A DNA stretch of 64,000 nucleotides from Deltaproteobacteria bacterium (GCA_040218735.1 JAVJQW010000041.1:64001-128000); one strand, 5' to 3'; positions 1 to 10,063 are shown, counted from the first letter of the stretch. The notes: a model not told the origin generated them from the sequence alone. Numbers and translations are program-made.

Positions 1-87
1 CTGGTGCTGCTGGTGAAGGGCGCGTCGATGCCGGAGCACGTCCCGGCTCCGCTGCGTCACGTGCCGTGTTGGGAGTTCCTGCCGTGA
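1..87 (+). CDS. 3' end of a partial hypothetical CDS (LVLLVKGASMPEHVPAPLRHVPCWEFLP*)
   Basis: Frame 1 is open from the window edge with G/C-ending codons; its TGA (85-87) overlaps the GTG (84-86) of the next gene (GTGA coupling). Confidence 0.65.
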   Translation: MVLLVKGASMPEHVPAPLRHVPCWEFLP

Positions 88-2993
88 GCGACTACGGGCG
101 ACTCGGGCCTCGCATCCGAGAGAAGATCCTCGAACGCTCCCCCGAGCAGGGTGACGTGCACGAGGCGATCGAAGCGTTCGCCAACGATGTCGGCGCGCGG
201 CTGCTGCTCTCCGAGGGGGCCGGCGAGGTCGCGGTGCTCATCCCCGAGAGCGACGCGTACGAGGCGCCGAAGCGCCTGGAGATCTCCAACCGCGACAGCG
301 GCGCGCTGATCGACGCCGTGCCGCGCTCCGGCTCCGTGCAGATCGAAGGCGTCGGGCGCTTCAGCCGCTACGTCGTCGAGCCGCACCGACTCGAGAAGGC
401 GGCGGGCAAGGACGTCGCGCTCGGGATCCGCGGTGAGGACTGGTCACCGCTCGGCTTCGACGGGTGGTTCTTCGAGGACCTGCGCATGTGGGTCGACCTC
501 GCGCGTCGCGACGAAGGCCTGGAGGTTCGCTCCGAGCTGGACCCCGAGCCCGACGGCGAGACCTGGATGCGCCTCGAGGCGGACCAGCGGTCGGCGCTGG
601 AGAACGTGCTGCGTCGCGTGCTGCCGGACGTCGTGCATCGCTCGGTCCTCGACGAGGCGCAGGCGCTCGCGAAGGAGGCCAACGGTGCCTTCGACGCCGC
701 GCTCGACAGCATCGCACTTACGCTCGGGAGCAGCGCGCCCGTCGAGCCGGAGCTCGGTGCACCCGCGACGCTCGACGCTGCGGCGCCGGTGCTCGAGTCG
801 CTCTTCGGCGCAGGGGTGCTCGATCCGGACGCGACGCCGCCGAAGGGGTTGCTCGAGCTCGCCGCGGATCTGCTGAAGGAGCGCGGGCTGGAGGCGGCGC
901 CGGTGCGGTTGGCGCTCCGCGGTGACGCCGTGGACCGCGCCGATCTCGACGCGGCGCTCGAGCGCGCGATGGGGCGTCGCTTCGTGACCGACCGCGAGAT
1001 GACGACTTCGCTCGTCGACGCGATCATCGATCGCCACGGCGAGGCGATGTCGTTCGCCGACGTCGAGGTGCTGCGTGACCTTCGCGTGGAGCTCGAGGAG
1101 CGCGCGCAAGTCGAGTTGCTCGGGCCGCAGGTCGCCGACCGTACGCTTCCCACGGCCTCGGCCGACAAGGCCCTCGACGATCTCATGAAACACCTGAAGG
1201 GCGGCACCGGCGTGGACGACGCCGCGCTCTTCACGCTCGCTTCGAAGGTGCAAGGCGCGGTCAACGCACCGCGCGGGCGCCCGCACGTGGTCGTCGTCGC
1301 AGGCGATCTCGGGCCCGGCGCGAACGAGGTGCTCGACCGCGCGATGGAGCTCGTCGGCCCCGACGCCGTGAAGCTCGCGGGTGACGAGATGCGCCTGTTC
1401 GACCCGGTCGGTTACCTCACCGGGTCGCCGATGGGGGAGCACGGCGCGGCGCCGTCGCGGTTGGTCGCAGATGGCGGTCGCCTCGTGGCGCGCATCGACG
1501 GGCTCGAGAAGATCGGCGCGCAGCTCCCGGACGAGGCGCAGCGCGAGCGGACGGCCGAGAGCTTCTTCGGGTTCGTCTCGCACCTCGAGCGTGAGGGCTG
1601 GTACCGGCCCGCGGACGGCAAGGGCGCCAACACGCCGGACGGACGGATGCAGCTCGAAGGCGGGATGTTGGTGCTGACGACGAGCGACTCGCCGAAGGCG
1701 CTGTCCGCGAAGATGTCCGACGACGTCTGGGCGCAGCTCGCGCCGCACGTCGTGGAGCTGAAGACCTCCGATGCGACCCGCCTCGCGGACGAGATTGCGA
1801 CGCAGGTGCGGCGCGCCGTGATGGACGCCGGGGAGTATCCGGACGCCCAAGTGGAGATCGGCGACCGGGCACGCGCGATGATCCGCGACCTCGCGGACGC
1901 GGGCATGAAGCCGTCGGTGCTGTCGCAGACGTTGATCGACTTCCTGGTGGAGCGCGTCGCGTACGCGGCGCTCGACGGTGCGCTGTCGCCGAAGCTGCGG
2001 ATCGATCTGCACCGCGGGCTCACGTCGAAGGAGCGCAAGACGGTGGTGGACGCGTGGGGCGAGGGGACGTTCCCGTCGCTCGCGGGCATCGGCGGTTGCC
2101 CGTTGGTGCTGCTCGACGAGGGGCACTTCGAGGGGCAGGCGAAGGCGTTCGATCCGAAGATTCGGGTGCGTGGCGATCACGTCGACCCGCGGCTGCAGGT
2201 GGCGGAGTACCAGGTCGCCCTCGCGGCTTCGAACCGTGACAACAAGGAGCTGCTGTCGGCGAACCAGCGCCTGGCCGAGTGGCTCGACGCGGCCGAGACG
2301 CGCATCAGCGATCTCGGGTACGTGAACACGCGGCAGAAGGCGGAGATCAAGGACCTCGTGCGGCTCAACAAGATCGCGGAGGAGACGATCGCGAGCCTGC
2401 AGTCCGATCTCACCGAGGCCAACGTGCGCATCGAAGGGCTCAACGCCGACCTGAAGAAGGCGAAGGACGCCGCGGAGGAGATCCGCGCCGCGCTGAAGAC
2501 CGCCGAGTCCGAGCGCGACGAGATCTACAAGACGCTGCGTCAGACCGAGGACGAGTTCTCGGATGCGGTTCGTGAGGTCGCCGGCTCGGCCGACACCCGC
2601 GACCCGAACGCGGTGCTCAGCCAGGTCATCGCGACGGGGCTGACGCGGAATCGGTTCCGCGACGGGCTCACGGAGCAGCTCTTCATGATCGCGACGTCGC
2701 AGGCGCTGGAGCGCTCCGGCGTGTTTGCGCGGTCGTTCAACAAGTGGGGCGAGATCACCAAGCTCGCCAAGAACTACGTGCTGGCGTGCGCGGCGCTGGA
2801 TCGTCCGGTCGACGGGCGGATCCTGAACGGCTTCGAGCGCGCCGCGCGCCTGTCGGGGAATGGGCGCGAGCGCAACTTGGCGCAGGCGTGGGAGCGCGAC
2901 GTCGGGCTCCCGTCCGGGTACGCGGGGCGCGACCCGAACATGCTCACGCATTCGATTCGCCAGCTGGCGAGGCTGGGGCTCATCCGCCTCTAG
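84..2993 (+). CDS. Large hypothetical protein: unknown N-terminal domain + degenerate ClpA/B D2-like AAA+ module + coiled coil
   Basis: ORF 66..2993, start moved to the coupled GTG at 84. RPHVVVVAGDLGPGANE...YLTGSPMGEHG...RIDGLEKIG...LEREG...GMLVLTTS parallels the Clp D2 order (GPTGVGKT...LIGAPPGYVG...LDEIEKAH...LDDG...IIMTSN). Heptad-rich segment at ~2200-2570. Confidence 0.8.
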   Translation: MSDYGRLGPRIREKILERSPEQGDVHEAIEAFANDVGARLLLSEGAGEVAVLIPESDAYEAPKRLEISNRDSGALIDAVPRSGSVQIEGVGRFSRYVVEPHRLEKAAGKDVALGIRGEDWSPLGFDGWFFEDLRMWVDLARRDEGLEVRSELDPEPDGETWMRLEADQRSALENVLRRVLPDVVHRSVLDEAQALAKEANGAFDAALDSIALTLGSSAPVEPELGAPATLDAAAPVLESLFGAGVLDPDATPPKGLLELAADLLKERGLEAAPVRLALRGDAVDRADLDAALERAMGRRFVTDREMTTSLVDAIIDRHGEAMSFADVEVLRDLRVELEERAQVELLGPQVADRTLPTASADKALDDLMKHLKGGTGVDDAALFTLASKVQGAVNAPRGRPHVVVVAGDLGPGANEVLDRAMELVGPDAVKLAGDEMRLFDPVGYLTGSPMGEHGAAPSRLVADGGRLVARIDGLEKIGAQLPDEAQRERTAESFFGFVSHLEREGWYRPADGKGANTPDGRMQLEGGMLVLTTSDSPKALSAKMSDDVWAQLAPHVVELKTSDATRLADEIATQVRRAVMDAGEYPDAQVEIGDRARAMIRDLADAGMKPSVLSQTLIDFLVERVAYAALDGALSPKLRIDLHRGLTSKERKTVVDAWGEGTFPSLAGIGGCPLVLLDEGHFEGQAKAFDPKIRVRGDHVDPRLQVAEYQVALAASNRDNKELLSANQRLAEWLDAAETRISDLGYVNTRQKAEIKDLVRLNKIAEETIASLQSDLTEANVRIEGLNADLKKAKDAAEEIRAALKTAESERDEIYKTLRQTEDEFSDAVREVAGSADTRDPNAVLSQVIATGLTRNRFRDGLTEQLFMIATSQALERSGVFARSFNKWGEITKLAKNYVLACAALDRPVDGRILNGFERAARLSGNGRERNLAQAWERDVGLPSGYAGRDPNMLTHSIRQLARLGLIRL

Positions 2994-3004
2994 GAGCAAT
3001 CACC

Positions 3005-3745
3005 ATGTCGAGAACAGTCTACATCGATGGTCGAACCGTTCAGCTCATGGACTGCCACCGCATCATCAACGCGGCGATCGACGAGCTCAACGCGCGCCGC
3101 TCCGATTCGAACTGCGGTCACGCCGACGTCGTCAAGAGCGACCTCGACGTATCCAGCGCGGTCGAGGCGTTCCGCGAGTCGCGGTACCGCGACCAGATGG
3201 ACGAGCGGGACACGAACGAGCTGCAAGCCAAGTTGCAGAAGGACACGCCGGACTACTCGGCGGAGACGCTCGGCGACTGGCGGCCGGACGTATCGGTGCC
3301 GCCGGTGAAGGTCCACGAGAACGTGCGCGAGCAGGAGGGTGGGCGTCGGCTGGTCGAGATGCTCGACGTCCCCATGCTCGACGATCGCACGGCCGGGGTC
3401 GAAGGCGTGACGATCAGCGTCCTGGAGGTCGACGACGGCAGCGGCGGGACGTCCTACGAAATCGGGCTGGATTCGATCCTGTTCGACGACGAGGGCGAGT
3501 GGAAGTCGAGCAAGTCGAAGGCGGCCTGGGAGAGCTTCCTCGCGCGGCGCGCCGCCGAAGAGGGCGCGCAGGGCGACGCCGCACCGGCCCAGCGGAGCGG
3601 CGCAAAGGCCGAGCAGGCGATGCGCGTCGCGGGGCTCGCGAAGCAGGGGAGCCGGCGCGTCCCGGGCGGTCGAACGCAGACGGTGTTCGGCACGAACGAG
3701 ACGGTGACGAAGCCGGCCGCGAAGTCGTTCAAGGTCGGGGAGTGA
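3005..3745 (+). CDS. Hypothetical protein (246 aa, acidic core, basic/Ala-rich tail)
   Basis: ATG 3005 preceded by AGGAG (2992-2996); typical codon bias; the ORF-track extension to 2744 overlaps the upstream gene. Confidence 0.8.
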   Translation: MSRTVYIDGRTVQLMDCHRIINAAIDELNARRSDSNCGHADVVKSDLDVSSAVEAFRESRYRDQMDERDTNELQAKLQKDTPDYSAETLGDWRPDVSVPPVKVHENVREQEGGRRLVEMLDVPMLDDRTAGVEGVTISVLEVDDGSGGTSYEIGLDSILFDDEGEWKSSKSKAAWESFLARRAAEEGAQGDAAPAQRSGAKAEQAMRVAGLAKQGSRRVPGGRTQTVFGTNETVTKPAAKSFKVGE

Positions 3746-3749
3746 GTCG

Positions 3750-5645
3750 GTGACGGGAATCAAGAAAGACGTCCAGGCGAAGCTCGCGAGCGCGGGCCTC
3801 ACCGAGAAACACCTCGAAGAACCGGGGGCGCACGTCCTCGTCACCGACGGCGACGACCTGCACGTCCTCGTGCCGAAGTCCGAGGCGCACGCGGGGATCG
3901 ACAAGCTCGAGGCGGAGGTCGTCGGGCACCGTGGCGTCATCGACGTCACCGAGGCCGCCGAGTACGACATGGGCGAGCTCGGCGTGTGGCGCGACTTCGT
4001 CGTGTCGGATCTGCGCGGGGCTCAGCTCAACAAACTCGCCGCGAAGGGGACCGAGCTGCGGCTGTTTGCGCCCGACGTGGACGGGGACCCCTCGTTCTAC
4101 GCGTCGGTGGATCTCGCGTTTGCGATGATGGAGGTCGTTGGGCGCGAGCTGCTCGCGGTGCGTCCGATCCCCGCGGGGGTGCGCGACGGGAAGAACTTCG
4201 TCGAGGTGACGCCGAAGCAGCGGCAGGTGCTGCACGCGCTCCTCGGCCGGTGGGTGGACGACACGATCCCCGACCACAAACTCCTGGACGCCGCGCAGGC
4301 CTGGAGTTCGCTGCAGGCGGAGGTGTTCGATACCGGTGTCGTTGGCGCGCGGGCCCTCGGGTTGGTCCCGGGGCGGACCGCGGCGCCGCGCCCCGACGCG
4401 CTGTCGTCGGCGGACGGCGAGGGCGCGCACGGGATGGCCGCGGCGACGGTGAAGTACCTCGCCGAGTCCGGCGTGGACGTTCCGGACGCGGTCGACATCA
4501 CGTGGGCGGAGGCGACGATCGACGCGCTGCCGAACGACGTGCCGGAGCCGGTCGCGATGGACGTGCGCAACCTCCTCGGGCGGCTGCACGACGCGAAGGA
4601 TGCGGAGGCCGCGGCGCTGTTCGGGATGGACGAGGCGGTCGAGCCCGCGCCCGCGGAGCACTCCGGCCAGACGCGGTTCGCGCAGAGCGTAGAGCGGAGG
4701 TTGTCGCAGCTCTCGAAGGGGCTCGAAGGGTACGGCGTGCCAGCCGCGACGCAGAAGCGCCTCGCCGAGCAGCTCGCTTCGGCGATCGAGCCCAACCGCA
4801 ACCCGAGCCTGATCATCGTCGCGGGTGAGCGCGGGTCGGCGGGGAAGCCGGTATTCGATCTCGCGGTGTCGATCGTCGGCAAGCAGGCGCTCGAGGTGCA
4901 CGGTTCGGATCTCGCCGAGCCCGGGTGGTCGCTCCTGTTCGGACACAACAACGGCTTCCCCACCGAGGGCGACGCGTGGTTGTCGCAATCGAACCTCGAG
5001 AAACACCGCGAGACACCCGCCGACCACGTGCCGGTGGTGATCTCGAACCTTGCGGCGGCGGGCTCTGCGGAGCCGGACGACAAGGCGTTCCACCAGCGTG
5101 ACCTGATGGCGCGCATCGCGGAGTGGACGGGCACCGGAACGGTGAACGTCTTCGCGAAGGACGACGCCGGCGCGGCGAAGCAGTCCACGACGAAGCTCAC
5201 GAACACCGTCTTCATGGTGCGGTGGGAAGGCTCGCAGCAGGAGCTCGCCGAGGTGCTGAAGGGCGCTCCGGAGACGGCGGGGCTCGCGTCGCGGGTGATC
5301 GGCTTGGAGCCGTACGCGCCGGGCGATGCGGTGCACGCGCTCGTGCAGGAGGTGACGAACGACCTCGCGCAGCACTTTGGTCCACAGGGCTGCACGATCA
5401 CGCTCGACGCGGGTGTGGAGCGGGCGATCACCTCGGCGATGAAGTCGCTCGGGCCCGCGGCGGGGCGTGACCTGTTCTTCGAGCAGATGCGTCGCGAGGT
5501 GCGGGACGCCGTGGCGTCGCAGCCGTCGACGGCCTACACGCTGTCGATCAGCAAACGTCTGACGACGAAGGAGCAGGAGGGCCTCGCGCGCGGTCAGGCG
5601 CCGCAGGGTGTCGTGCCGCGTTGGTTCGGCGTACAGTCCGCCTGA
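3750..5645 (+). CDS. Paralog of 84..2993: unknown N-terminal domain + degenerate Clp D2-like AAA+ module
   Basis: IIVAGERGSAGKP...LLFGHNNGFPTEG...TKLTNTVFMV...LASRVIGLEPY...QGCTITLDAGVERAI follows the Clp D2 order; N-terminus aligns by eye with the 84..2993 protein. Confidence 0.8.
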   Translation: MTGIKKDVQAKLASAGLTEKHLEEPGAHVLVTDGDDLHVLVPKSEAHAGIDKLEAEVVGHRGVIDVTEAAEYDMGELGVWRDFVVSDLRGAQLNKLAAKGTELRLFAPDVDGDPSFYASVDLAFAMMEVVGRELLAVRPIPAGVRDGKNFVEVTPKQRQVLHALLGRWVDDTIPDHKLLDAAQAWSSLQAEVFDTGVVGARALGLVPGRTAAPRPDALSSADGEGAHGMAAATVKYLAESGVDVPDAVDITWAEATIDALPNDVPEPVAMDVRNLLGRLHDAKDAEAAALFGMDEAVEPAPAEHSGQTRFAQSVERRLSQLSKGLEGYGVPAATQKRLAEQLASAIEPNRNPSLIIVAGERGSAGKPVFDLAVSIVGKQALEVHGSDLAEPGWSLLFGHNNGFPTEGDAWLSQSNLEKHRETPADHVPVVISNLAAAGSAEPDDKAFHQRDLMARIAEWTGTGTVNVFAKDDAGAAKQSTTKLTNTVFMVRWEGSQQELAEVLKGAPETAGLASRVIGLEPYAPGDAVHALVQEVTNDLAQHFGPQGCTITLDAGVERAITSAMKSLGPAAGRDLFFEQMRREVRDAVASQPSTAYTLSISKRLTTKEQEGLARGQAPQGVVPRWFGVQSA

Positions 5646-5646
5646 A

Positions 5647-6654
5647 GTGGACCTCGACCGCGAGCCGCTCGCCATCTCCGTCGTCGAGCACGACGACACC
5701 GGCCGGGTGTCCTTCTCGGACGTCCCGGACCGGCTGATCCCCGCGTTGGTCGAGGCGTTCGGCGAGGAGCGCGTCGCGCGCGCGATTCACCCTTCGGACC
5801 CGGAGCGAGCGTTCTGGATGTCGCTGCCGGTGATGCCGAAGCGCACGCCGTGGCCGCGCTTCAAGAAGCTCTTCAAGAACGGCGAGCTCGAAAAACGCGT
5901 GCGTTCGATCGGCGAGGTGCGGCCCGCGCCTTACTTCATGACGGCCATCAACCTCTCGGACGAGCCGGTGCTCGGGAAGACCGGCGTCGTCTACTTCGTG
6001 TGCAAGAAGGGTTGCCACTTCTGCCAGTACCGCGACTTCGAGGAGCACACCGTCGACCCGGAGGGCCTCGCGCGTCGGATGCTCGCGCTCCAGGCGGGTG
6101 GCGCGGACAACGTGCAGTTCCTTTCACCGACGGCGTACACGAAGGCGATCGTCGTCGCGATCTACCTCGCGGCGCAGCGCGGCTTCTCGCTGCCGATCGT
6201 GCACAAGAGCGAGGGCGAGGACTCGCCGGAGGACCTCGCGCTGCTGGACGGGCTCGTCGACGTCTACGTGCCGGACGCGAAGTTCATGAGCCCGGACTGG
6301 TCGGCGCGCATCGGGTTGCCGGCCACGTACCCGGCGCGCATGCAGGCTTGCATCCAGGAGATGTACCGGCAGGTTGGCCCGCTCACGCGGCGCGCAGAGG
6401 ATTCGATCCTCCACGGCTCGGGGGTGTTGGTGCGCCACTTGTTGATGCCCCACGGGGTGCCCGAGATGCGCGAGGTGCTCACGTTCGTGAAGTCGATCGA
6501 CGAGCGCCTCCCCGCCCACATCATGACCGGTTACGAACCGCTGCACGACGCGGCGAACGTGGAGGGCATCGACCGGCCCGTCACGCCGGGGGAGATCCAC
6601 GCCGCCACGCAGGCGGCGCGGAAGGTGAACCTCGAGTTCTCGATCGTGCGGTGA
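5647..6654 (+). CDS. Radical SAM protein, PflX-like (PFL-activating-enzyme related)
   Basis: CxxxCxxC (CKKGCHFC) plus PflX-type motifs LLDGLVDVYVPDAKF, EMYRQVG, VLVRHLLMP; GTG 1 nt after the upstream stop. Confidence 0.85.
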   Translation: MDLDREPLAISVVEHDDTGRVSFSDVPDRLIPALVEAFGEERVARAIHPSDPERAFWMSLPVMPKRTPWPRFKKLFKNGELEKRVRSIGEVRPAPYFMTAINLSDEPVLGKTGVVYFVCKKGCHFCQYRDFEEHTVDPEGLARRMLALQAGGADNVQFLSPTAYTKAIVVAIYLAAQRGFSLPIVHKSEGEDSPEDLALLDGLVDVYVPDAKFMSPDWSARIGLPATYPARMQACIQEMYRQVGPLTRRAEDSILHGSGVLVRHLLMPHGVPEMREVLTFVKSIDERLPAHIMTGYEPLHDAANVEGIDRPVTPGEIHAATQAARKVNLEFSIVR

Positions 6655-6657
6655 GCC

Positions 6658-7317
6658 TCACCAGGGGAGCGCTTCACCGTTGGCGTGGAAGAACGTGCCG
6701 CTCGACTCCATCGACAACGCGTCGAAGCGTTCGATCAACCCGCGCGCCGACTCTTCCGGCGTGACGTTGCCGCTGCCGCCCGTCATCTCGGTCTGAACGA
6801 ACCCGGGGTGGAGGAGGCCGACGGCGATGCCGCGCGGGCGGAGGTCGTGCGCCAGCGAGCGGCCGACCATGTTCACGGCCGCCTTGGACATGCGGTAGCC
6901 GTACATTCCGCCGGAGGTGTTGTCGGCGAGCGAACCCATGCGGCTGGTGACGATCGCGACCTTCGCGCCTTCTTTGAGTCGGGGGAGGAGCGCGACGGTC
7001 ATGCGCAGCGGGCCGATCGCGTTGACCTCGAACTGTTCGCGGATGCCGACGAGGTCGATCGCGCCCAGGCCGTCGGGCCGGAGGATGCCGGCGTTGTTGA
7101 ACAGCCCGTCGAGCTGGACGTCGGCGATGCGATCGGCGAGGACGTCGGCGCCGTCGTCAGCGACGTCGATTCCGCCCTCGACGCGGCAGCCGACCGCCTT
7201 CAGGCCGTCGGAGGGGGTGCGGCAGGCGGCGATGACTTCGTCGCCGCGCGCGGTGAGTTGCCGGGTGATTTCGAGGCCGATGCCGCGGTTGGCGCCGGTG
7301 ACCAGGATTGTCGCCAT
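6658..7317 (-). CDS. SDR family oxidoreductase (CsgA/C-factor-like subgroup)
   Basis: TGANRGIG, NNAG, YRMSK catalytic motif, HPGFVQTEM. Confidence 0.92.
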   Translation of the reverse strand: MATILVTGANRGIGLEITRQLTARGDEVIAACRTPSDGLKAVGCRVEGGIDVADDGADVLADRIADVQLDGLFNNAGILRPDGLGAIDLVGIREQFEVNAIGPLRMTVALLPRLKEGAKVAIVTSRMGSLADNTSGGMYGYRMSKAAVNMVGRSLAHDLRPRGIAVGLLHPGFVQTEMTGGSGNVTPEESARGLIERFDALSMESSGTFFHANGEALPW

Positions 7318-7349: not shown

Positions 7350-8684
7350 CTACTCCTCGGGGCTGAGGCCGTAGCGTTTGAGTTTGTCGAGGAGCGTGAC
7401 GCGTCCGACGCCGAGCGCGCGTGCGGCCTCCGATCGGTTCCAGCCCGTGCGTTCCAGCTCTGCGAGGATCAAGCCGCGTTCGTACGCGTCGACGCGGGCC
7501 TTGAGCGTGAGCGGGGTTTCGGCGCCGGTGTCGACGCCGAGGTCTTCGATCAGGTCGTCGCTCGCCAGCGCGACGAGGCGTTCGACTTCGTTCTCCAGCT
7601 CGCGGACGTTGCCCTTGTAGCTGCCGGCCATCAGGCGCGCGCGCGCGTGGGGGCCGAGGCGGGCATTCTTGAGGCCGAAGCGGTTCGCGTAGCGTTTCAC
7701 GAAGTGTTCGATGAGCGGCTCCAGGTCCTCCGGGCGTTCCCGGAGCGGGGGGAGCGCGATCTGGACGACGTCGAGCCGGTAGAAGAGGTCTTCGCGGAAG
7801 TCACCGGCCTTCACGCGGGCTGCGAGGTCGGCGTGGGTGGCGGCGATGATACGGACGTCGACCTTTCGGGGTTGGTCGTCGCCGACCGCGCGGACCTCGC
7901 CGGCCTGGAGCGTGCGGAGCAACTTGCCTTGCACGGACAGATCGAGCTCCGCGATCTCGTCGAGGACCAACGTGCCGCCGTCGGCGCGACCGAACAGACC
8001 TTCGCGCCGACGTACCGCGCCGGTGAACGCACCCTCCGAGTGACCGAACATCTCGTCCTCCGCGACCTCGCGGGGGAGGGCGGCGCAGTTGAACTTCACG
8101 AACGGGGCGTCCCGACGCCCGCTCGTGGCGACGAGCGCGTCGGCGACGAGCTCCTTGCCGGTGCCGCTCTCGCCGTGGATGAGCACCGTAACGTCCTTGG
8201 GGCCGACGCGCTCCACGACCTCCGCGATGCGGCGCATCTTCTCGGAGCGGAAGATCATGTGCTGGCTCAGGTGGAGCGCCGCGCGGAGCCGGCGGTTCTC
8301 GTGCACGAGCCGCGCGGTCTCGGTGGCGCGGGTGACGACGCGCGCGACGTCGTCCACGTCGAACGGCTTGGGGAAGTAGTCGAAGGCGCCGTTCTTCATC
8401 GCCTCGACGGCGGCGGACTCGGAGCCGTGCGCAGTGATCATCACGACCTTGATCCCCGGGTGCAGATCGACGGCGTGTCTCAGCACCGCCATGCCGTCGG
8501 CGCGCGGCATCCTGAGGTCCGTGATCACGAGGTCGACCGGGCCTTCGTCGAGGCGTTCGATCGCGGCCTGACCGTCGGCCGCTTCCTCGACCGCGACGTC
8601 GAGCTCTTCGAGCACTTCACGCAGCGTGAAGCGGACCCCGTCGTCGTCGTCGACGAGCAGCACCGTGGGGTGGTCCTTCGACAT
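7350..8684 (-). CDS. Sigma54-dependent response regulator (NtrC family: REC-AAA+-Fis HTH)
   Basis: LLVDDD, DLRMP receiver; GESGTGKE, GAFTGA, LDEI, FREDLFYRL; C-terminal HTH. Start at MSKDHP. Confidence 0.95.
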   Translation of the reverse strand: MSKDHPTVLLVDDDDGVRFTLREVLEELDVAVEEAADGQAAIERLDEGPVDLVITDLRMPRADGMAVLRHAVDLHPGIKVVMITAHGSESAAVEAMKNGAFDYFPKPFDVDDVARVVTRATETARLVHENRRLRAALHLSQHMIFRSEKMRRIAEVVERVGPKDVTVLIHGESGTGKELVADALVATSGRRDAPFVKFNCAALPREVAEDEMFGHSEGAFTGAVRRREGLFGRADGGTLVLDEIAELDLSVQGKLLRTLQAGEVRAVGDDQPRKVDVRIIAATHADLAARVKAGDFREDLFYRLDVVQIALPPLRERPEDLEPLIEHFVKRYANRFGLKNARLGPHARARLMAGSYKGNVRELENEVERLVALASDDLIEDLGVDTGAETPLTLKARVDAYERGLILAELERTGWNRSEAARALGVGRVTLLDKLKRYGLSPEE

Positions 8685-8689
8685 CGTGC

Positions 8690-10063
8690 CTACTCTACCC
8701 GCGCTCGCTTCACGGGGAGAACCAGCGCGGCCTCCAGGCCGCCGGCCTCGAGGTTCGCGAGGCGGAGGGTCCCGCCGTGTTGCTCGGCGATCGTCCTCGC
8801 GACGGCGAGGCCGATCCCGCTGCCCTGGGGTTTGGTGGTGGCGCCGATCTGGGTCGCGCGGCCGATGAGGTCGTCGGACATCCCGGGCCCTTCGTCGCGC
8901 ACGCCGACCGTGAGGACGTCGCCCTGGCTTTCGACGAACCACCGGACCGAAGCGTCGGCCGGGGTGGCGTCGATCGCGTTCATGAGGAGGTTGGTCAGCG
9001 CCTGTCCGAGCTTGCGGGGGTCGGCCTCGACTTCACCGATCACTTCGGGCGCGTCGATCGTAACGGACTGCTCGGCGGCGAACCCTTCGTGCAGCGACGT
9101 GAGCTCGGTGAGGAGTTCGCCCAGGTCGACGAGCTCCACGGTCAGCTCGCCGAGGGGGCGCGAGAAGTTGAGGAACTCGTCGAGGATGCTGCGGGTCCGG
9201 TCGAGCTCGCGCTCCAGGACCTCGAAGCGGCGCTCGCTGTTCTTCCCGCCGCGGCGGAGGAGCTGCACGAGGCCCTGCACCGACGCCAGCGGGTTCTTGA
9301 GCTCGTGGGCGATCGCTCCGGAGAGGTGCACGAGCTCGCGGTTGCGATCGGCGAGCGCGTTGACGGTCGCCTGGCGGGCGTCGATGGCGTCGTCGAGCAT
9401 TTGGTCCACCGTGCGCGACACGATCGTCCCGACCCGGATGAGGACGCCGCAGAGCGTCGACACCACGAAGCCGTAGGTGACCAGGAACCGCGGCCCCAGC
9501 GGGTCGAGCTCCAGGAACAACGGCGACAGCCGAGGCCACCAGCCGAAGATGGCGCCGAGGACCATCGTCCAGACGAGCCCCCACAGCGTGAGGATGAGGC
9601 CGACGCGGCCGCGTGTCTCGAGCACCACGCCGCCCACCAGGGAGATGACGCTGTAGATCGCGAGGAACGGGCTCTCGGCGCCGCCCGTGATCAGGATGAC
9701 CGACGACTGGATGACGACGCCGAACGCGAGGTCGACGCTGATGCTGGAGAGGACGAAGTCGCGGCCCCGGGCGATCCGGAGGAGATCGAAGACCGCGATC
9801 GGTGTGAAGACCAGCACCGCCCCGGCGACGAGCCAGCCCGGCCAGTCGAGCCGTTGAGTCAGCGCGAGCGTGACGATCAGCAGCACCGCGAGGGTGAGCC
9901 CGGCGGCGCGCGCGCGGGTGAGGCTGCGGATGATCCGGCCGACCTCGCGACGCCGAAGCGCGTTCTTCGTGAGCTCCGCCGGCGACACCGTGGGAGGCAG
10001 GTGCGAAATTCGTTCCGGATCGTCGAGCGACGCGAGGCTCGTGGCGTCCGCACGCTCCGACAT
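8690..10063 (-). CDS. Membrane sensor histidine kinase
   Basis: Several N-terminal TM helices; AHELKNPL H-box; N-box NAIDA; DEGPG and GSGIGL G-boxes. Confidence 0.93.
   Translation of the reverse strand: MSERADATSLASLDDPERISHLPPTVSPAELTKNALRRREVGRIIRSLTRARAAGLTLAVLLIVTLALTQRLDWPGWLVAGAVLVFTPIAVFDLLRIARGRDFVLSSISVDLAFGVVIQSSVILITGGAESPFLAIYSVISLVGGVVLETRGRVGLILTLWGLVWTMVLGAIFGWWPRLSPLFLELDPLGPRFLVTYGFVVSTLCGVLIRVGTIVSRTVDQMLDDAIDARQATVNALADRNRELVHLSGAIAHELKNPLASVQGLVQLLRRGGKNSERRFEVLERELDRTRSILDEFLNFSRPLGELTVELVDLGELLTELTSLHEGFAAEQSVTIDAPEVIGEVEADPRKLGQALTNLLMNAIDATPADASVRWFVESQGDVLTVGVRDEGPGMSDDLIGRATQIGATTKPQGSGIGLAVARTIAEQHGGTLRLANLEAGGLEAALVLPVKRARVE

What the first reader, a model, noticed from the sequence alone, without database searches (positions are those of the whole stretch)
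1..6654. Candidate undescribed operon: two paralogous pseudo-Clp AAA+ proteins, an acidic protein and a remodelled radical SAM enzyme
Seen: five co-directional genes with GTGA overlap and gaps of 11, 4 and 1 nt. The 969-aa and 631-aa proteins both carry a ClpA/B D2-like module with broken Walker motifs. The operon ends in a PflX-like radical SAM gene. Knowledge: Clp D2 modules form hexameric rings, and PflX belongs to the activase-like radical SAM group with no settled substrate. I know no described pathway with this gene set. Inference: the two inactive AAA+ paralogs may form a heteromeric scaffold or sensor, perhaps with an active NTPase encoded upstream of the window, and the radical SAM enzyme may modify it or act as its effector (defence or proteostasis).
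Basis: partly seen in the sequence, partly recalled or inferred. Interest (0 to 1): 0.85.

Follow-up and report, generated by a model that had tools for sequence, protein, structure and literature searches.

The report
Midasin–Clp operon with pseudo-Clp paralogs
The five genes are the tail of a rare, conserved eight-gene bacterial operon that joins a giant midasin-like ATPase and a working ClpB-like unfoldase to two dead copies of the Clp motor module and a radical SAM enzyme, a combination that no library or paper I could search describes.

Summary
Window 1-6654 carries the end of a 145-aa gene, then genes of 969, 246, 631 and 335 aa on the + strand. They are joined by a GTGA overlap and gaps of 11, 4 and 1 nt.

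The 969- and 631-aa proteins are paralogs along the whole 631-aa length (hhalign Prob 99.9, E 1.7e-34). AlphaFold2 models of both match only Clp/Hsp100 D2 modules at the top of the lists. For the 631-aa protein, VIA gives Z 15.2 over 284 residues; for the 969-aa protein, Z 9.0. The Walker A lysine, the Walker B Asp-Glu pair, sensor 1, the Arg finger and sensor 2 are lost across both families. The last gene is a radical SAM enzyme with an intact CX3CX2C motif, of the kind sources name "putative PFL activating enzyme".

A 4107-aa midasin-like AAA+/vWA protein and an intact 908-aa ClpB-like protein precede a Kelch protein and the small gene. The eight genes keep their order in two other genomes, and seven are visible in a metagenome contig. 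The set is rare: 6 of 401 genomes sampled from the phylum. Function is inferred only.

The parts
1..87 (+). 3' end of a 145-aa gene of no known family. It starts at G000:C58:63650, where its GTG overlaps the TGA of the Kelch gene. Its own TGA at 85-87 overlaps the GTG of the next gene.
   Evidence: Orthologs sit in the same position in G006, G004, G010, L026, G011 and G132. No Pfam or PADLOC hit.
84..2993 (+). 969-aa pseudo-Clp paralog (long form). It has an N-terminal alpha/beta plus helical region shared with the 631-aa protein, a dead D2 module, a coiled coil of about 110 residues and a C-terminal helical domain.
   Evidence: Pfam finds only coiled-coil noise at residues 700-830.
1155..2126 (+). 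Clp/Hsp100 D2-like module of the 969-aa protein (residues 358-681).
   Evidence: VIA Z 9.0, rmsd 8.2, 240 residues aligned to ClpC1 518-824. The Foldseek rows printed up to rank 50 are all Clp/Hsp100, best E 7e-5. The 969-family profile hits the 631-aa paralogs over this part at E 1.9e-16 and 3.9e-11.
1302..1325 (+). Walker A equivalent GDLGPGAN (residues 407-414). Ala stands at the Lys position and Asn at the Thr position.
   Evidence: No Lys at this position in any of the 6 family members.
1482..1502 (+). Walker B equivalent LVARIDG (residues 467-473). Asp-Gly stands in place of Asp-Glu. The pair varies in the family (DG, DG, SG, HG, KD, TG).
2250..2582 (+). Long coiled coil (residues 723-833) after the D2 module.
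   Evidence: One helix spans 723-833 in the model. Weak SMC, LmuB and Lpp-type coiled-coil hits only.
3005..3745 (+). 246-aa conserved protein of no family. Cys17 and Cys37 are invariant. The N-terminus gives a weak HMA/ferredoxin-like hit. Ala209-Gly210 are invariant near the C-terminus.
   Evidence: (3fry, E 0.036; a lead only).
3750..5645 (+). 631-aa pseudo-Clp paralog (short form). It has the same N-terminal region and a dead D2 module.
   Evidence: 0 of 15 family members hit any AAA family in Pfam.
4662..5642 (+). Clp/Hsp100 D2 plus D2-small-like module of the 631-aa protein (residues 305-631).
   Evidence: VIA Z 15.2, rmsd 4.7, 284 residues aligned to ClpC1 498-823. All 50 rows shown are Clp/Hsp100. 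Foldseek best E 2.2e-8.
4824..4847 (+). Walker A equivalent GERGSAGK (residues 359-366). Gly stands at the Lys position, and the Lys is shifted by one into the Thr position.
   Evidence: All 15 family members have Gly or Ala at the Lys position, and 12 of 15 have no Lys in the loop at all.
5028..5048 (+). Walker B equivalent VPVVISN (residues 427-433). Ser-Asn stands in place of Asp-Glu, and the pair is not conserved in the family.
5647..6654 (+). 335-aa radical SAM enzyme of the PflX / 'putative PFL activating enzyme' kind, with a clade-specific N-terminal extension of about 95 residues.
   Evidence: Pfam PF04055 E 0.0075, below its cut-off. Atlas features 0.96 and structure TM 0.78 to radical SAM clusters. 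33 close full-length homologs besides its own record, then a drop to 31-42% identity over 56-81% of the query.
6001..6024 (+). CX3CX2C cluster-binding motif (C119, C123, C126).
   Evidence: Invariant in the 4 orthologs aligned.

Best explanation
SHOWN. Window 1-6654 is the 3' half of one eight-gene module at G000:C58:46646-70654. In order, the genes encode:
1. a 4107-aa midasin-like protein with at least five tandem MoxR-clade AAA+ modules and two vWA domains carrying DxSxS MIDAS motifs;
2. a 908-aa ClpB/ClpC-like two-ring unfoldase with intact Walker motifs;
3. a Kelch propeller protein;
4. a 145-aa protein;
5. a 969-aa pseudo-Clp protein;
6. a 246-aa protein;
7. a 631-aa pseudo-Clp protein;
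8. a radical SAM enzyme.
Genes 2 to 8 are coupled by overlaps or gaps of at most 11 nt.

INFERRED MECHANISM. The products work as one protein-remodelling machine. The midasin-like protein binds a target through its MIDAS sites. The ClpB-like ATPase supplies unfolding force and is tied to the Kelch protein; a relative fuses the two. The two pseudo-Clp paralogs cannot bind or hydrolyse ATP in the usual way. They act as non-catalytic partners, that is adaptors, gates or decoys, that dock on or mimic the D2 ring of the active Clp. The radical SAM enzyme is the chemical output and modifies a protein or peptide, either a client or an operon product such as the 246-aa protein.

INFERRED ROLE. By its layout, its rarity and a swappable last module, the operon is most likely a conflict (anti-invader or abortive) system. 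That places it with the MoxR-vWA-centred systems that Kaur et al. 2020 found enriched in social bacteria.
For: - Composition: (Pfam AAA_5 in 4 stretches, AAA_lid_7, two vWA domains; AAA_2, AAA_lid_9, ClpB_D2-small; Kelch); the giant's best solved relatives are eukaryotic midasins at E 9e-24, against CbbQ at 4e-6. ClpB 1qvr at E 1.5e-91; motifs and module count.
- Dead D2 modules.
- Paralogy.
- Purifying selection on the pseudo-enzymes: 34 of the 40 listed differences are synonymous.
- Conserved order: G006 and G004 hold all eight genes in order, and L026 holds seven up to the contig end. G010 holds all eight on three contigs.
- The flanks of the block are not shared: the two upstream ORFs and the SDR gave no hit in the other loci.
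- Rarity: 5 of 20 genomes of the order and 6 of 401 sampled from the phylum, G000 included.
- Modularity: G011 keeps giant, Kelch, the small protein and an N-domain protein. It replaces the rest with an intact Clp-D2::Kelch fusion and a protein carrying HExxH, and has no radical SAM gene.
- Precedent, from passages and sections 22 and 24 of PMC7159879: MoxR-vWA conflict systems use inactive copies of cellular enzymes as effectors or decoys, and some carry a Memo/PFL-AE-type radical SAM enzyme.
Against: - No experiment and no expression data exist.
- PADLOC names no system. Only the active Clp D2 gives partial hits, to PDC-M37B and DolB.
- The flanking genes are ordinary: M20 peptidase, FolB, a glycosyltransferase, an NtrC-type regulator, efflux proteins. 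There is no defence island and no mobile-element gene.
- None of the four ternary subsystems of Kaur et al. fits. The AAA+ and vWA parts are fused here, and the propeller is a separate gene.
- The D2 assignment rests on predicted structures. Sequence profiles do not reach Clp: hhalign Prob 3%, and HMMER against PDB and Pfam finds nothing. The 969-aa model is of low confidence over part of the module.
- No substrate of the radical SAM enzyme is identified.
Confidence: 0.4

Rival explanations
1. Maturation or repair pathway. As with CoxD/E, NorQ/D, CbbQ/O and the chelatases, the MoxR-clade AAA+ with vWA inserts a metal or cofactor into, or reactivates, a specific enzyme. That enzyme could be the radical SAM protein or its client. 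The 246-aa two-cysteine protein would act as a metallochaperone and the Clp proteins as unfoldases for the apo-protein.
For: The MoxR-vWA pairing is classically tied to metal insertion and enzyme remodelling. I saw this in PMC7159879 section 8 and in the listing of PMC13036017 (abstract start only). The N-terminus of the 246-aa protein gives a weak HMA-like hit with two invariant Cys. The flanks are ordinary genes.
Against: No target enzyme is encoded in or next to the conserved block. The HMA hit is E 0.036 and lacks the CxxC motif. A patchy presence of 6 in 401 genomes and a swappable last module (G011) are unusual for a maturation pathway whose client is not carried along.
Confidence: 0.2
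2. Peptide or protein natural-product pathway. The radical SAM enzyme modifies a ribosomal peptide or the tail of an operon protein, and the AAA+ proteins unfold, present or export it.
For: Radical SAM enzymes of this size class are predicted to modify peptides in FtsH-type ternary systems (PMC7159879, section 24). The enzyme carries a clade-specific N-terminal extension that could bind a partner.
Against: No short precursor gene, peptidase or exporter lies in the conserved block. The enzyme has four Cys in all, so no SPASM-type auxiliary cluster.
Confidence: 0.1
3. Glycyl-radical pair. The PFL-AE-like enzyme installs a glycyl radical on Gly210 of the 246-aa protein, a GrcA-like small radical carrier.
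For: The window's protein and its G006 ortholog read MRVAGL 36 residues from the C-terminus. Ala209-Gly210 are invariant in 5 orthologs. The resemblance to the RVxG[FWY] fingerprint and to GrcA is recalled from memory, not from a call.
Against: The Arg, the Val and the aromatic residue after Gly are not conserved (LKAAGL, FRAAGL, AKAGM). Neither Pfam nor the PDB profile search finds a glycyl-radical domain.
Confidence: 0.05
4. The pseudo-Clp genes are decaying duplicates without function, and their adjacency to the radical SAM gene is chance.
For: All catalytic motifs are lost.
Against: The frames are intact in five sources. Order and tight spacing are conserved. 34 of the 40 listed strain differences are synonymous. 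The families are 24-73% and 30-55% identical to the window's proteins across their members.
Confidence: 0.02

Closest known systems
D2 (NBD2) module of class-1 Clp/Hsp100 ATPases (ClpB, ClpA, ClpC, Hsp104, Skd3)
   Same: Predicted fold of the large alpha-beta-alpha subdomain plus the D2-small helical subdomain. In the alignment, the helices before the P-loop, the strand order and an LxGxP stretch before the pore loop are in register.
   Different: No Walker A Lys, no conserved Walker B Asp-Glu, no sensor-1 Asn, no Arg finger, no sensor-2 Arg and no conserved pore-loop Tyr. There is no D1 ring. A new N-terminal region of about 300 residues is present, and the 969-aa form adds a coiled coil and a further domain. 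The modules are invisible to Pfam AAA models.
MoxR-vWA-centred ternary conflict systems (Kaur, Burroughs, Iyer, Aravind 2020, PMC7159879; passages and sections 22 and 24 read)
   Same: A MoxR-clade AAA+ works with MIDAS-type vWA domains. A beta-propeller component is present, and modules derived from cellular enzymes appear in inactive form. Some of those systems carry a PFL-AE/Memo-type radical SAM enzyme. They are enriched in social bacteria such as myxobacteria.
   Different: Here the AAA+ and vWA parts are fused in one midasin-like giant. No VMAP, iSTAND or FtsH component is present, and the propeller is not fused to vWA. A ClpB-like ATPase and pseudo-Clp proteins are not mentioned in the parts I read.
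Eukaryotic midasin (Rea1/Mdn1)
   Same: The giant upstream protein has tandem AAA_5 modules, a midasin-type lid domain, a long linker and C-terminal MIDAS domains. Its best solved relatives are midasins at E 9e-24.
   Different: It is bacterial, has two vWA domains, sits in an operon with Clp-type proteins, and has no link to ribosome assembly.
PFL-activase-like radical SAM enzymes (PflX / 'putative pyruvate formate lyase activating enzyme')
   Same: CX3CX2C motif, small size, no auxiliary cluster, names given by sources, and a structural match at TM 0.78.
   Different: It lies below Pfam's cut-off and has no NCBIfam model. It carries a clade-specific N-terminal extension. No glycyl-radical enzyme is nearby.
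Dodola and PDC-M37 candidate defence systems (ClpB-like component)
   Same: The D2 of the upstream active Clp matches DolB (E 2e-18) and PDC-M37B (E 1e-24).
   Different: The matches cover only the shared AAA+ core. No partner protein of those systems is found among the operon's proteins.
Plant SMXL/D53 proteins (recalled from memory, no call)
   Same: Clp/Hsp100-derived proteins that act as non-chaperone regulatory scaffolds.
   Different: They are eukaryotic, keep both rings, and work in hormone signalling. This is an analogy only.

Membership tests
Clp/Hsp100 AAA+ D2 module | AAA+ large subdomain plus D2-small helical subdomain fold | tested here: met
   631-aa: Z 15.2, 284 residues aligned, rmsd 4.7. 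969-aa: Z 9.0, 240 aligned, rmsd 8.2, from a model of pLDDT 67. Both are predicted models only.
Clp/Hsp100 AAA+ D2 module | Walker A GxxxxGK[ST] | tested here: not met
   No regex match in either protein. At the Lys position, all 15 members of the 631 family have Gly or Ala, and all 6 members of the 969 family have Ala, Val or Ile.
Clp/Hsp100 AAA+ D2 module | Walker B hhhhDE, sensor-1 Asn, Arg finger, sensor-2 Arg | tested here: not met
   The aligned positions are variable or replaced in both families, while the operon's own Clp keeps all of them.
Clp/Hsp100 AAA+ D2 module | Match to Pfam AAA_2 / ClpB_D2-small or to Clp sequences | tested here: not met
   No hit. hhalign against the operon's own Clp D2 alignment gives Prob 3%, E 0.013-0.014.
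Radical SAM superfamily | CX3CX2C motif for the [4Fe-4S] cluster | tested here: met
   C119, C123 and C126 are invariant in 4 orthologs.
Radical SAM superfamily | Pfam PF04055 above the gathering score | tested here: not met
   16.9 bits against a cut-off of 29.5. Several close homologs do carry a precomputed PF04055 hit, and the Atlas structure match is TM 0.78.
PFL-activase / glycyl-radical pair | Partner protein with an RVxG[FWY] glycyl-radical motif and domain | tested here: not met
   Only Ala-Gly is invariant in the 246-aa protein, and no Gly_radical hit was found. The motif definition is recalled from memory.
MoxR-vWA ternary conflict systems (Kaur et al. 2020) | Separate MoxR AAA+ and vWA proteins plus a VMAP, iSTAND, FtsH or vWA-fused propeller component | tested here: not met
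   AAA+ and vWA are fused in one 4107-aa protein, and the Kelch propeller is a separate gene. Definitions come from sections 8, 21 and 22.
Known defence systems in PADLOC-DB 2.0 | Hits to the full component set of a system | tested here: not met
   Of the eight proteins, only the active Clp gives non-coiled-coil hits, and these are partial.
Midasin-like AAA+ (upstream giant) | Tandem AAA_5 modules, midasin lid, C-terminal MIDAS domain | tested here: met
   Five modules are seen; a sixth is not resolved.

The most novel reading that the evidence does not exclude
This is a previously unrecognised class of bacterial conflict system built around a midasin-like motor. Two pseudo-Hsp100 proteins serve as decoys or gates of a dedicated ClpB-like unfoldase. 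For example, they could sense invader proteins that target host Clp machines. On triggering, the unfoldase feeds a client to a radical SAM enzyme that modifies it covalently and irreversibly. The two paralogs would be the first bacterial pseudo-Hsp100 family. The giant would be a bacterial counterpart of eukaryotic midasin with a defined set of partners.
Probability: 0.2. Interest if true: 0.85.

Novelty: new variant of a known kind. Interest (0 to 1): 0.62.

Why it matters
Dead copies of Hsp100 motor modules kept under purifying selection, next to a live ClpB-like motor, would give a simple bacterial model for how pseudo-ATPases regulate AAA+ unfoldases.

A bacterial protein whose closest solved relatives are eukaryotic midasins, and which comes with a fixed set of partner genes, offers a way to study midasin-type mechanics outside ribosome assembly. 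It also bears on the origin of the dynein/midasin lineage.

The PflX-type radical SAM enzymes have no settled substrate. A conserved operon narrows the search to a handful of co-encoded proteins.

If the conflict reading is right, the system adds a new architecture to the MoxR-vWA immune systems of social bacteria.

Tried and rejected
Family and sequence searches:
- Pfam, NCBIfam and PADLOC gave nothing beyond coiled-coil noise for the 969-, 246- and 631-aa proteins.
- HMMER against PDB sequences gave no Clp hit for either paralog or its profile. The best row for the 631 family was a designed P-loop protein at E 0.051, aligned at the degenerate P-loop. I treat it as a lead only.
- hhalign of the 631 family against the single Clp908 sequence gave Prob 0.3%. 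Against the Clp D2 alignment, both families gave Prob 3%.
- The radical SAM sequence and its profile gave no radical SAM hit in PDB.
- The Atlas search with residues 1-200 of the 631-aa protein gave a best score of 0.78, below any useful level.

Complex and expression:
- Complex prediction on 969(350-690) with 631(300-631) returned no verdict (score 0.12, mark 0.32). This is neither for nor against binding.
- No RNA holder is listed among the 22 runs, so nothing can be said on expression.
- Short joints and loose ends in the laid contigs (tables 5 and 7) have sides of 20-24 letters. I ignored them as other organisms or repeats.

Regulatory signals:
- No sigma-70-like promoter was found in the 423-nt gap between the giant and the Clp gene, and only one weak terminator-like site, on the opposite strand.

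Ideas rejected or set aside:
- The glycyl-radical idea for the 246-aa protein was weakened by the fifth ortholog.
- I first read GYL(V)GSP in the 969 family as a kept pore loop. The alignments put LxGSP opposite LxGAP, with an acidic residue at the Tyr position, so I dropped that reading.
- LVLLDE at residue 674 of the 969-aa protein lies after D2-small. It is not the Walker B.

Literature:
- The searches found no paper describing this gene set.

Full report
**1. The observation**

The window is G000:C58:64001-128000 of an 11.6-Mb genome with about 70% G+C. On the + strand, the first 87 bases are the end of a gene whose TGA (85-87) overlaps the GTG (84) of a 969-aa gene.
- TAG at 2991-2993, 11 nt, then ATG at 3005.
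- TGA at 3743-3745, 4 nt, then GTG at 3750.
- TGA at 5643-5645, 1 nt, then GTG at 5647.
- Stop at 6652-6654.

A convergent short-chain dehydrogenase gene follows at 6658-7317.

In such G+C-rich DNA long open frames arise by chance on both strands, so I checked that these frames are real:
- GC at codon position 3 is 0.91-0.94 in all four.
- All four have orthologs without stops in three other genomes and one metagenome contig.
- A 10,460-nt contig of an independent run covers 84-6654 with 86 differences and no gap.
- Of the 40 differences printed (125 were not shown), 34 are synonymous: 25 of 31 in the 969-aa gene, 4 of 4 in the 246-aa gene and 5 of 5 in the 631-aa gene.

**2. The two large proteins**

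BLASTP aligns them at 25% identity over about 420 residues (E 3e-7). Profile-profile comparison of the two families gives Prob 99.9, E 1.7e-34 over 637 columns, covering the whole 631-aa protein and residues 10-707 of the 969-aa protein. They are paralogs. The longer one adds a coiled coil of about 110 residues and a helical C-terminal domain.

Neither is seen by Pfam, NCBIfam or PADLOC. None of the 15 members of the 631 family hits an AAA model. HMMER against PDB sequences finds no Clp.

The AlphaFold2 models give the fold assignment:
- **631-aa protein.** The model was built with 15 sequences (pLDDT 79). Its Foldseek rows printed up to rank 48 are all Clp/Hsp100 apart from one ClpX chain (E from 2e-8). 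VIA-align places residues 305-631 on D2 plus D2-small of ClpC1, ClpA, ClpB, Hsp104 and Skd3 at Z 13.2-15.2, with 260-284 residues aligned at rmsd 4.1-5.6.
- **969-aa protein.** The model was built with 6 sequences (pLDDT 67, weaker over residues 400-470). It again has only Clp/Hsp100 among the Foldseek rows printed up to rank 50 (E from 7e-5). Residues 358-681 lie on D2 at Z 7.5-9.0 with a high rmsd.

Taken alone the second result would be middling. It gains weight from the firm paralogy to the first.

A MAFFT alignment of both families with the D2 of the operon's own Clp and three of its orthologs puts the motifs in register:
- The live Clp proteins keep GP[ST]GVGKT, hhhhDE, TSN or SSN, the Arg-finger region and GGRAL.
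- The 631 family has Gly or Ala at the Walker A Lys position in 15 of 15 members. In 3 members a Lys is shifted into the Thr position.
- The 969 family has Ala, Val or Ile at that position in 6 of 6 members.
- The Walker B pair, sensor 1, the Arg finger and sensor 2 are replaced or variable in both families.

hhalign against the Clp D2 alignment finds the same register but is not significant (Prob 3%). It rests on predicted structure plus motif register, not on sequence statistics.

**3. The other two genes**

The last protein has an invariant CX3CX2C motif and only four Cys in all. Its PF04055 match is weak (E 0.0075, below the cut-off) and it has no NCBIfam model. The ESM Atlas places it among radical SAM clusters, with a feature score of 0.96 and a structure TM of 0.78 to clusters named radical SAM or putative PFL activating enzyme.

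In the 5.8-billion-protein collection it has 33 close full-length homologs besides its own record (48-85% identity, E 9e-194 to 9e-85), several labelled Myxococcota. Identity then drops sharply to ordinary radical SAM proteins at 31-42% that cover only 56-81% of it, so they lack its first 95 or so residues. It is the best-conserved protein of the block, at 55-69% identity among orthologs.

The 246-aa protein has no family. Five orthologs share Cys17, Cys37 and Ala209-Gly210. A profile of four orthologs gives a weak HMA-type hit at the N-terminus (E 0.036).

**4. What lies upstream**

The tail at 1-87 belongs to a 145-aa gene whose GTG overlaps the TGA of a 510-aa Kelch-repeat gene.

One base before the Kelch gene ends a 908-aa gene. 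Its product carries AAA_2, AAA_lid_9 and ClpB_D2-small, matches T. thermophilus ClpB at E 1.5e-91 over residues 184-900, and has intact Walker A and B motifs in both rings.

A further 423 nt upstream ends a 4107-aa gene. Its product has AAA_5 in four stretches, the midasin lid domain and two vWA domains. At least five AAA modules show up by self-comparison. It has two canonical Walker A motifs and two DxSxS MIDAS motifs. Its best solved relatives are eukaryotic midasins (E 9e-24), far ahead of CbbQ (4e-6).

**5. Conservation and distribution**

| Source | What it holds |
|---|---|
| G006, G004 | All eight genes in the same order |
| Metagenome contig L026 | Clp (cut by the contig end), Kelch, small, 997-, 251- and 640-aa proteins, an inserted VOC-type gene, then the radical SAM gene |
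| G010 | small-969-246-631-radical SAM on one contig, Clp plus Kelch on a second, the giant on a third |
| G132 (very fragmented) | Pieces of the giant, Kelch, the small protein and the 969-type N-terminus |

Spacing stays tight in all of them. The genes flanking the block in G000 have no counterpart beside the other copies and are ordinary.

The set is rare:
- With the 969-family profile, 5 of 20 genomes of the order and 6 of 401 sampled from the phylum match, G000 included. One of these matches (G011) covers only the N-terminal domain.
- A pattern scan of 185,579 species genomes with the radical SAM enzyme found only the same three MAGs.
- The 631 family has 4 clusters in the 5.8-billion collection.
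- It has 30 hits among 1.84 billion representatives. About a dozen are full length, and none is a Clp.

Near-identical DNA occurs in sponge, aquaculture and biofloc metagenomes from several studies.

**6. A variant that helps**

G011 keeps the giant, Kelch, the small protein and a 373-aa protein with the paralogs' N-terminal domain. It then carries three different elements: a 291-aa protein; an 813-aa fusion of a Clp D2 with intact Walker motifs to Kelch repeats; and a 902-aa protein with an HExxH motif and a weak, sub-threshold match to a lethal-factor-type zincin domain. It has no radical SAM gene.

The fusion ties the Clp motor to the Kelch protein functionally. The exchange of the last module shows that the radical SAM enzyme sits in a variable "output" position.

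**7. Mechanism**

Shown:
- the gene set and the coupling of the genes;
- the dead and the live motors;
- purifying selection on the dead ones;
- rarity and modularity.

Inferred:
- The products act together.
- The pseudo-Clp paralogs are non-catalytic partners, decoys or gates of the dedicated ClpB-like unfoldase.
- The midasin-like protein recognises targets by its MIDAS sites.
- The radical SAM enzyme is the chemical output, acting on a protein or peptide.

The layout recalls the MoxR-vWA-centred conflict systems of Kaur et al. 2020. I read that paper's abstract, passages, and sections 22 and 24. Those systems combine MoxR and vWA with propellers, with inactive copies of cellular enzymes proposed to act as decoys or dominant-negative regulators, and in some cases with a Memo/PFL-AE-type radical SAM enzyme. 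They are concentrated in social bacteria.

None of that paper's four subsystems fits this operon, however, and no defence library names it. I give the conflict-system reading 0.4. A maturation or repair pathway in the classical MoxR-vWA sense gets 0.2. Peptide modification, a glycyl-radical pair and decay get less.

**8. Novelty and verdict**

Six literature searches found no description of this gene set, of bacterial pseudo-Hsp100 proteins or of a bacterial midasin-like operon. Passages of PMC3495828 place the origin of six-module midasin/dynein within eukaryotes.

The parts belong to known superfamilies and the grammar has a precedent, so I class it as a new variant of a known kind. The pseudo-Clp families and the eight-gene architecture are new as far as I could search. 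The finding is real and larger than reported, but its function remains inference. Interest 0.62.

Noticed in passing
G000:C58:46646-58969 (L004:2646-14969), upstream of the window: A 4107-aa bacterial protein whose best solved relatives are eukaryotic midasins (E 9e-24). It has at least five tandem AAA modules, a midasin lid domain and two vWA domains with DxSxS motifs. Orthologs occur in G006, G004, G010, G011 and G132.
   Followed up: partly
L034:5835-8276 and L034:8280-10988 (G011:C1): A variant system with no radical SAM gene. It has an 813-aa fusion of a Clp D2 (intact Walker A and B) to Kelch repeats, followed by a 902-aa protein with an HExxH motif and a weak, sub-threshold Pfam ATLF peptidase hit.
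   Followed up: partly
L026:9546-10001: In the metagenome copy, a 151-aa VOC/glyoxalase-like gene is inserted between the 631-type gene and the radical SAM gene. The family name is my reading of the translation; no family search was run.
   Followed up: no
window 3005-3745, residues 205-211: The 246-aa protein reads MRVAGL, which recalls the glycyl-radical fingerprint. Only Ala209-Gly210 are invariant in five orthologs.
   Followed up: yes
window 5771: Contigs of two runs (X3, X5) lack 3 bases here. This is an in-frame one-codon length variant in the N-terminal extension of the radical SAM enzyme.
   Followed up: no
window 7350-10063, - strand: An NtrC-type sigma-54 activator (receiver, Sigma54_activat, HTH_8) and a histidine kinase lie just downstream on the opposite strand. 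I did not test whether they are conserved beside the other copies of the operon.
   Followed up: no
G010: C162, C91 and C2 (L035, L032, L013): All eight components are present but sit on three contigs. On C2 other genes precede the small gene, so the split may be real rather than an assembly break.
   Followed up: partly
L003:10055-11179, - strand (G000:C58:44055-45179): A glycosyltransferase with a strong QTMAN_N (tRNA-queuosine mannosyltransferase N-terminal) domain and a weak 'GT4-conflict' hit lies about 1.5 kb upstream of the giant gene.
   Followed up: no
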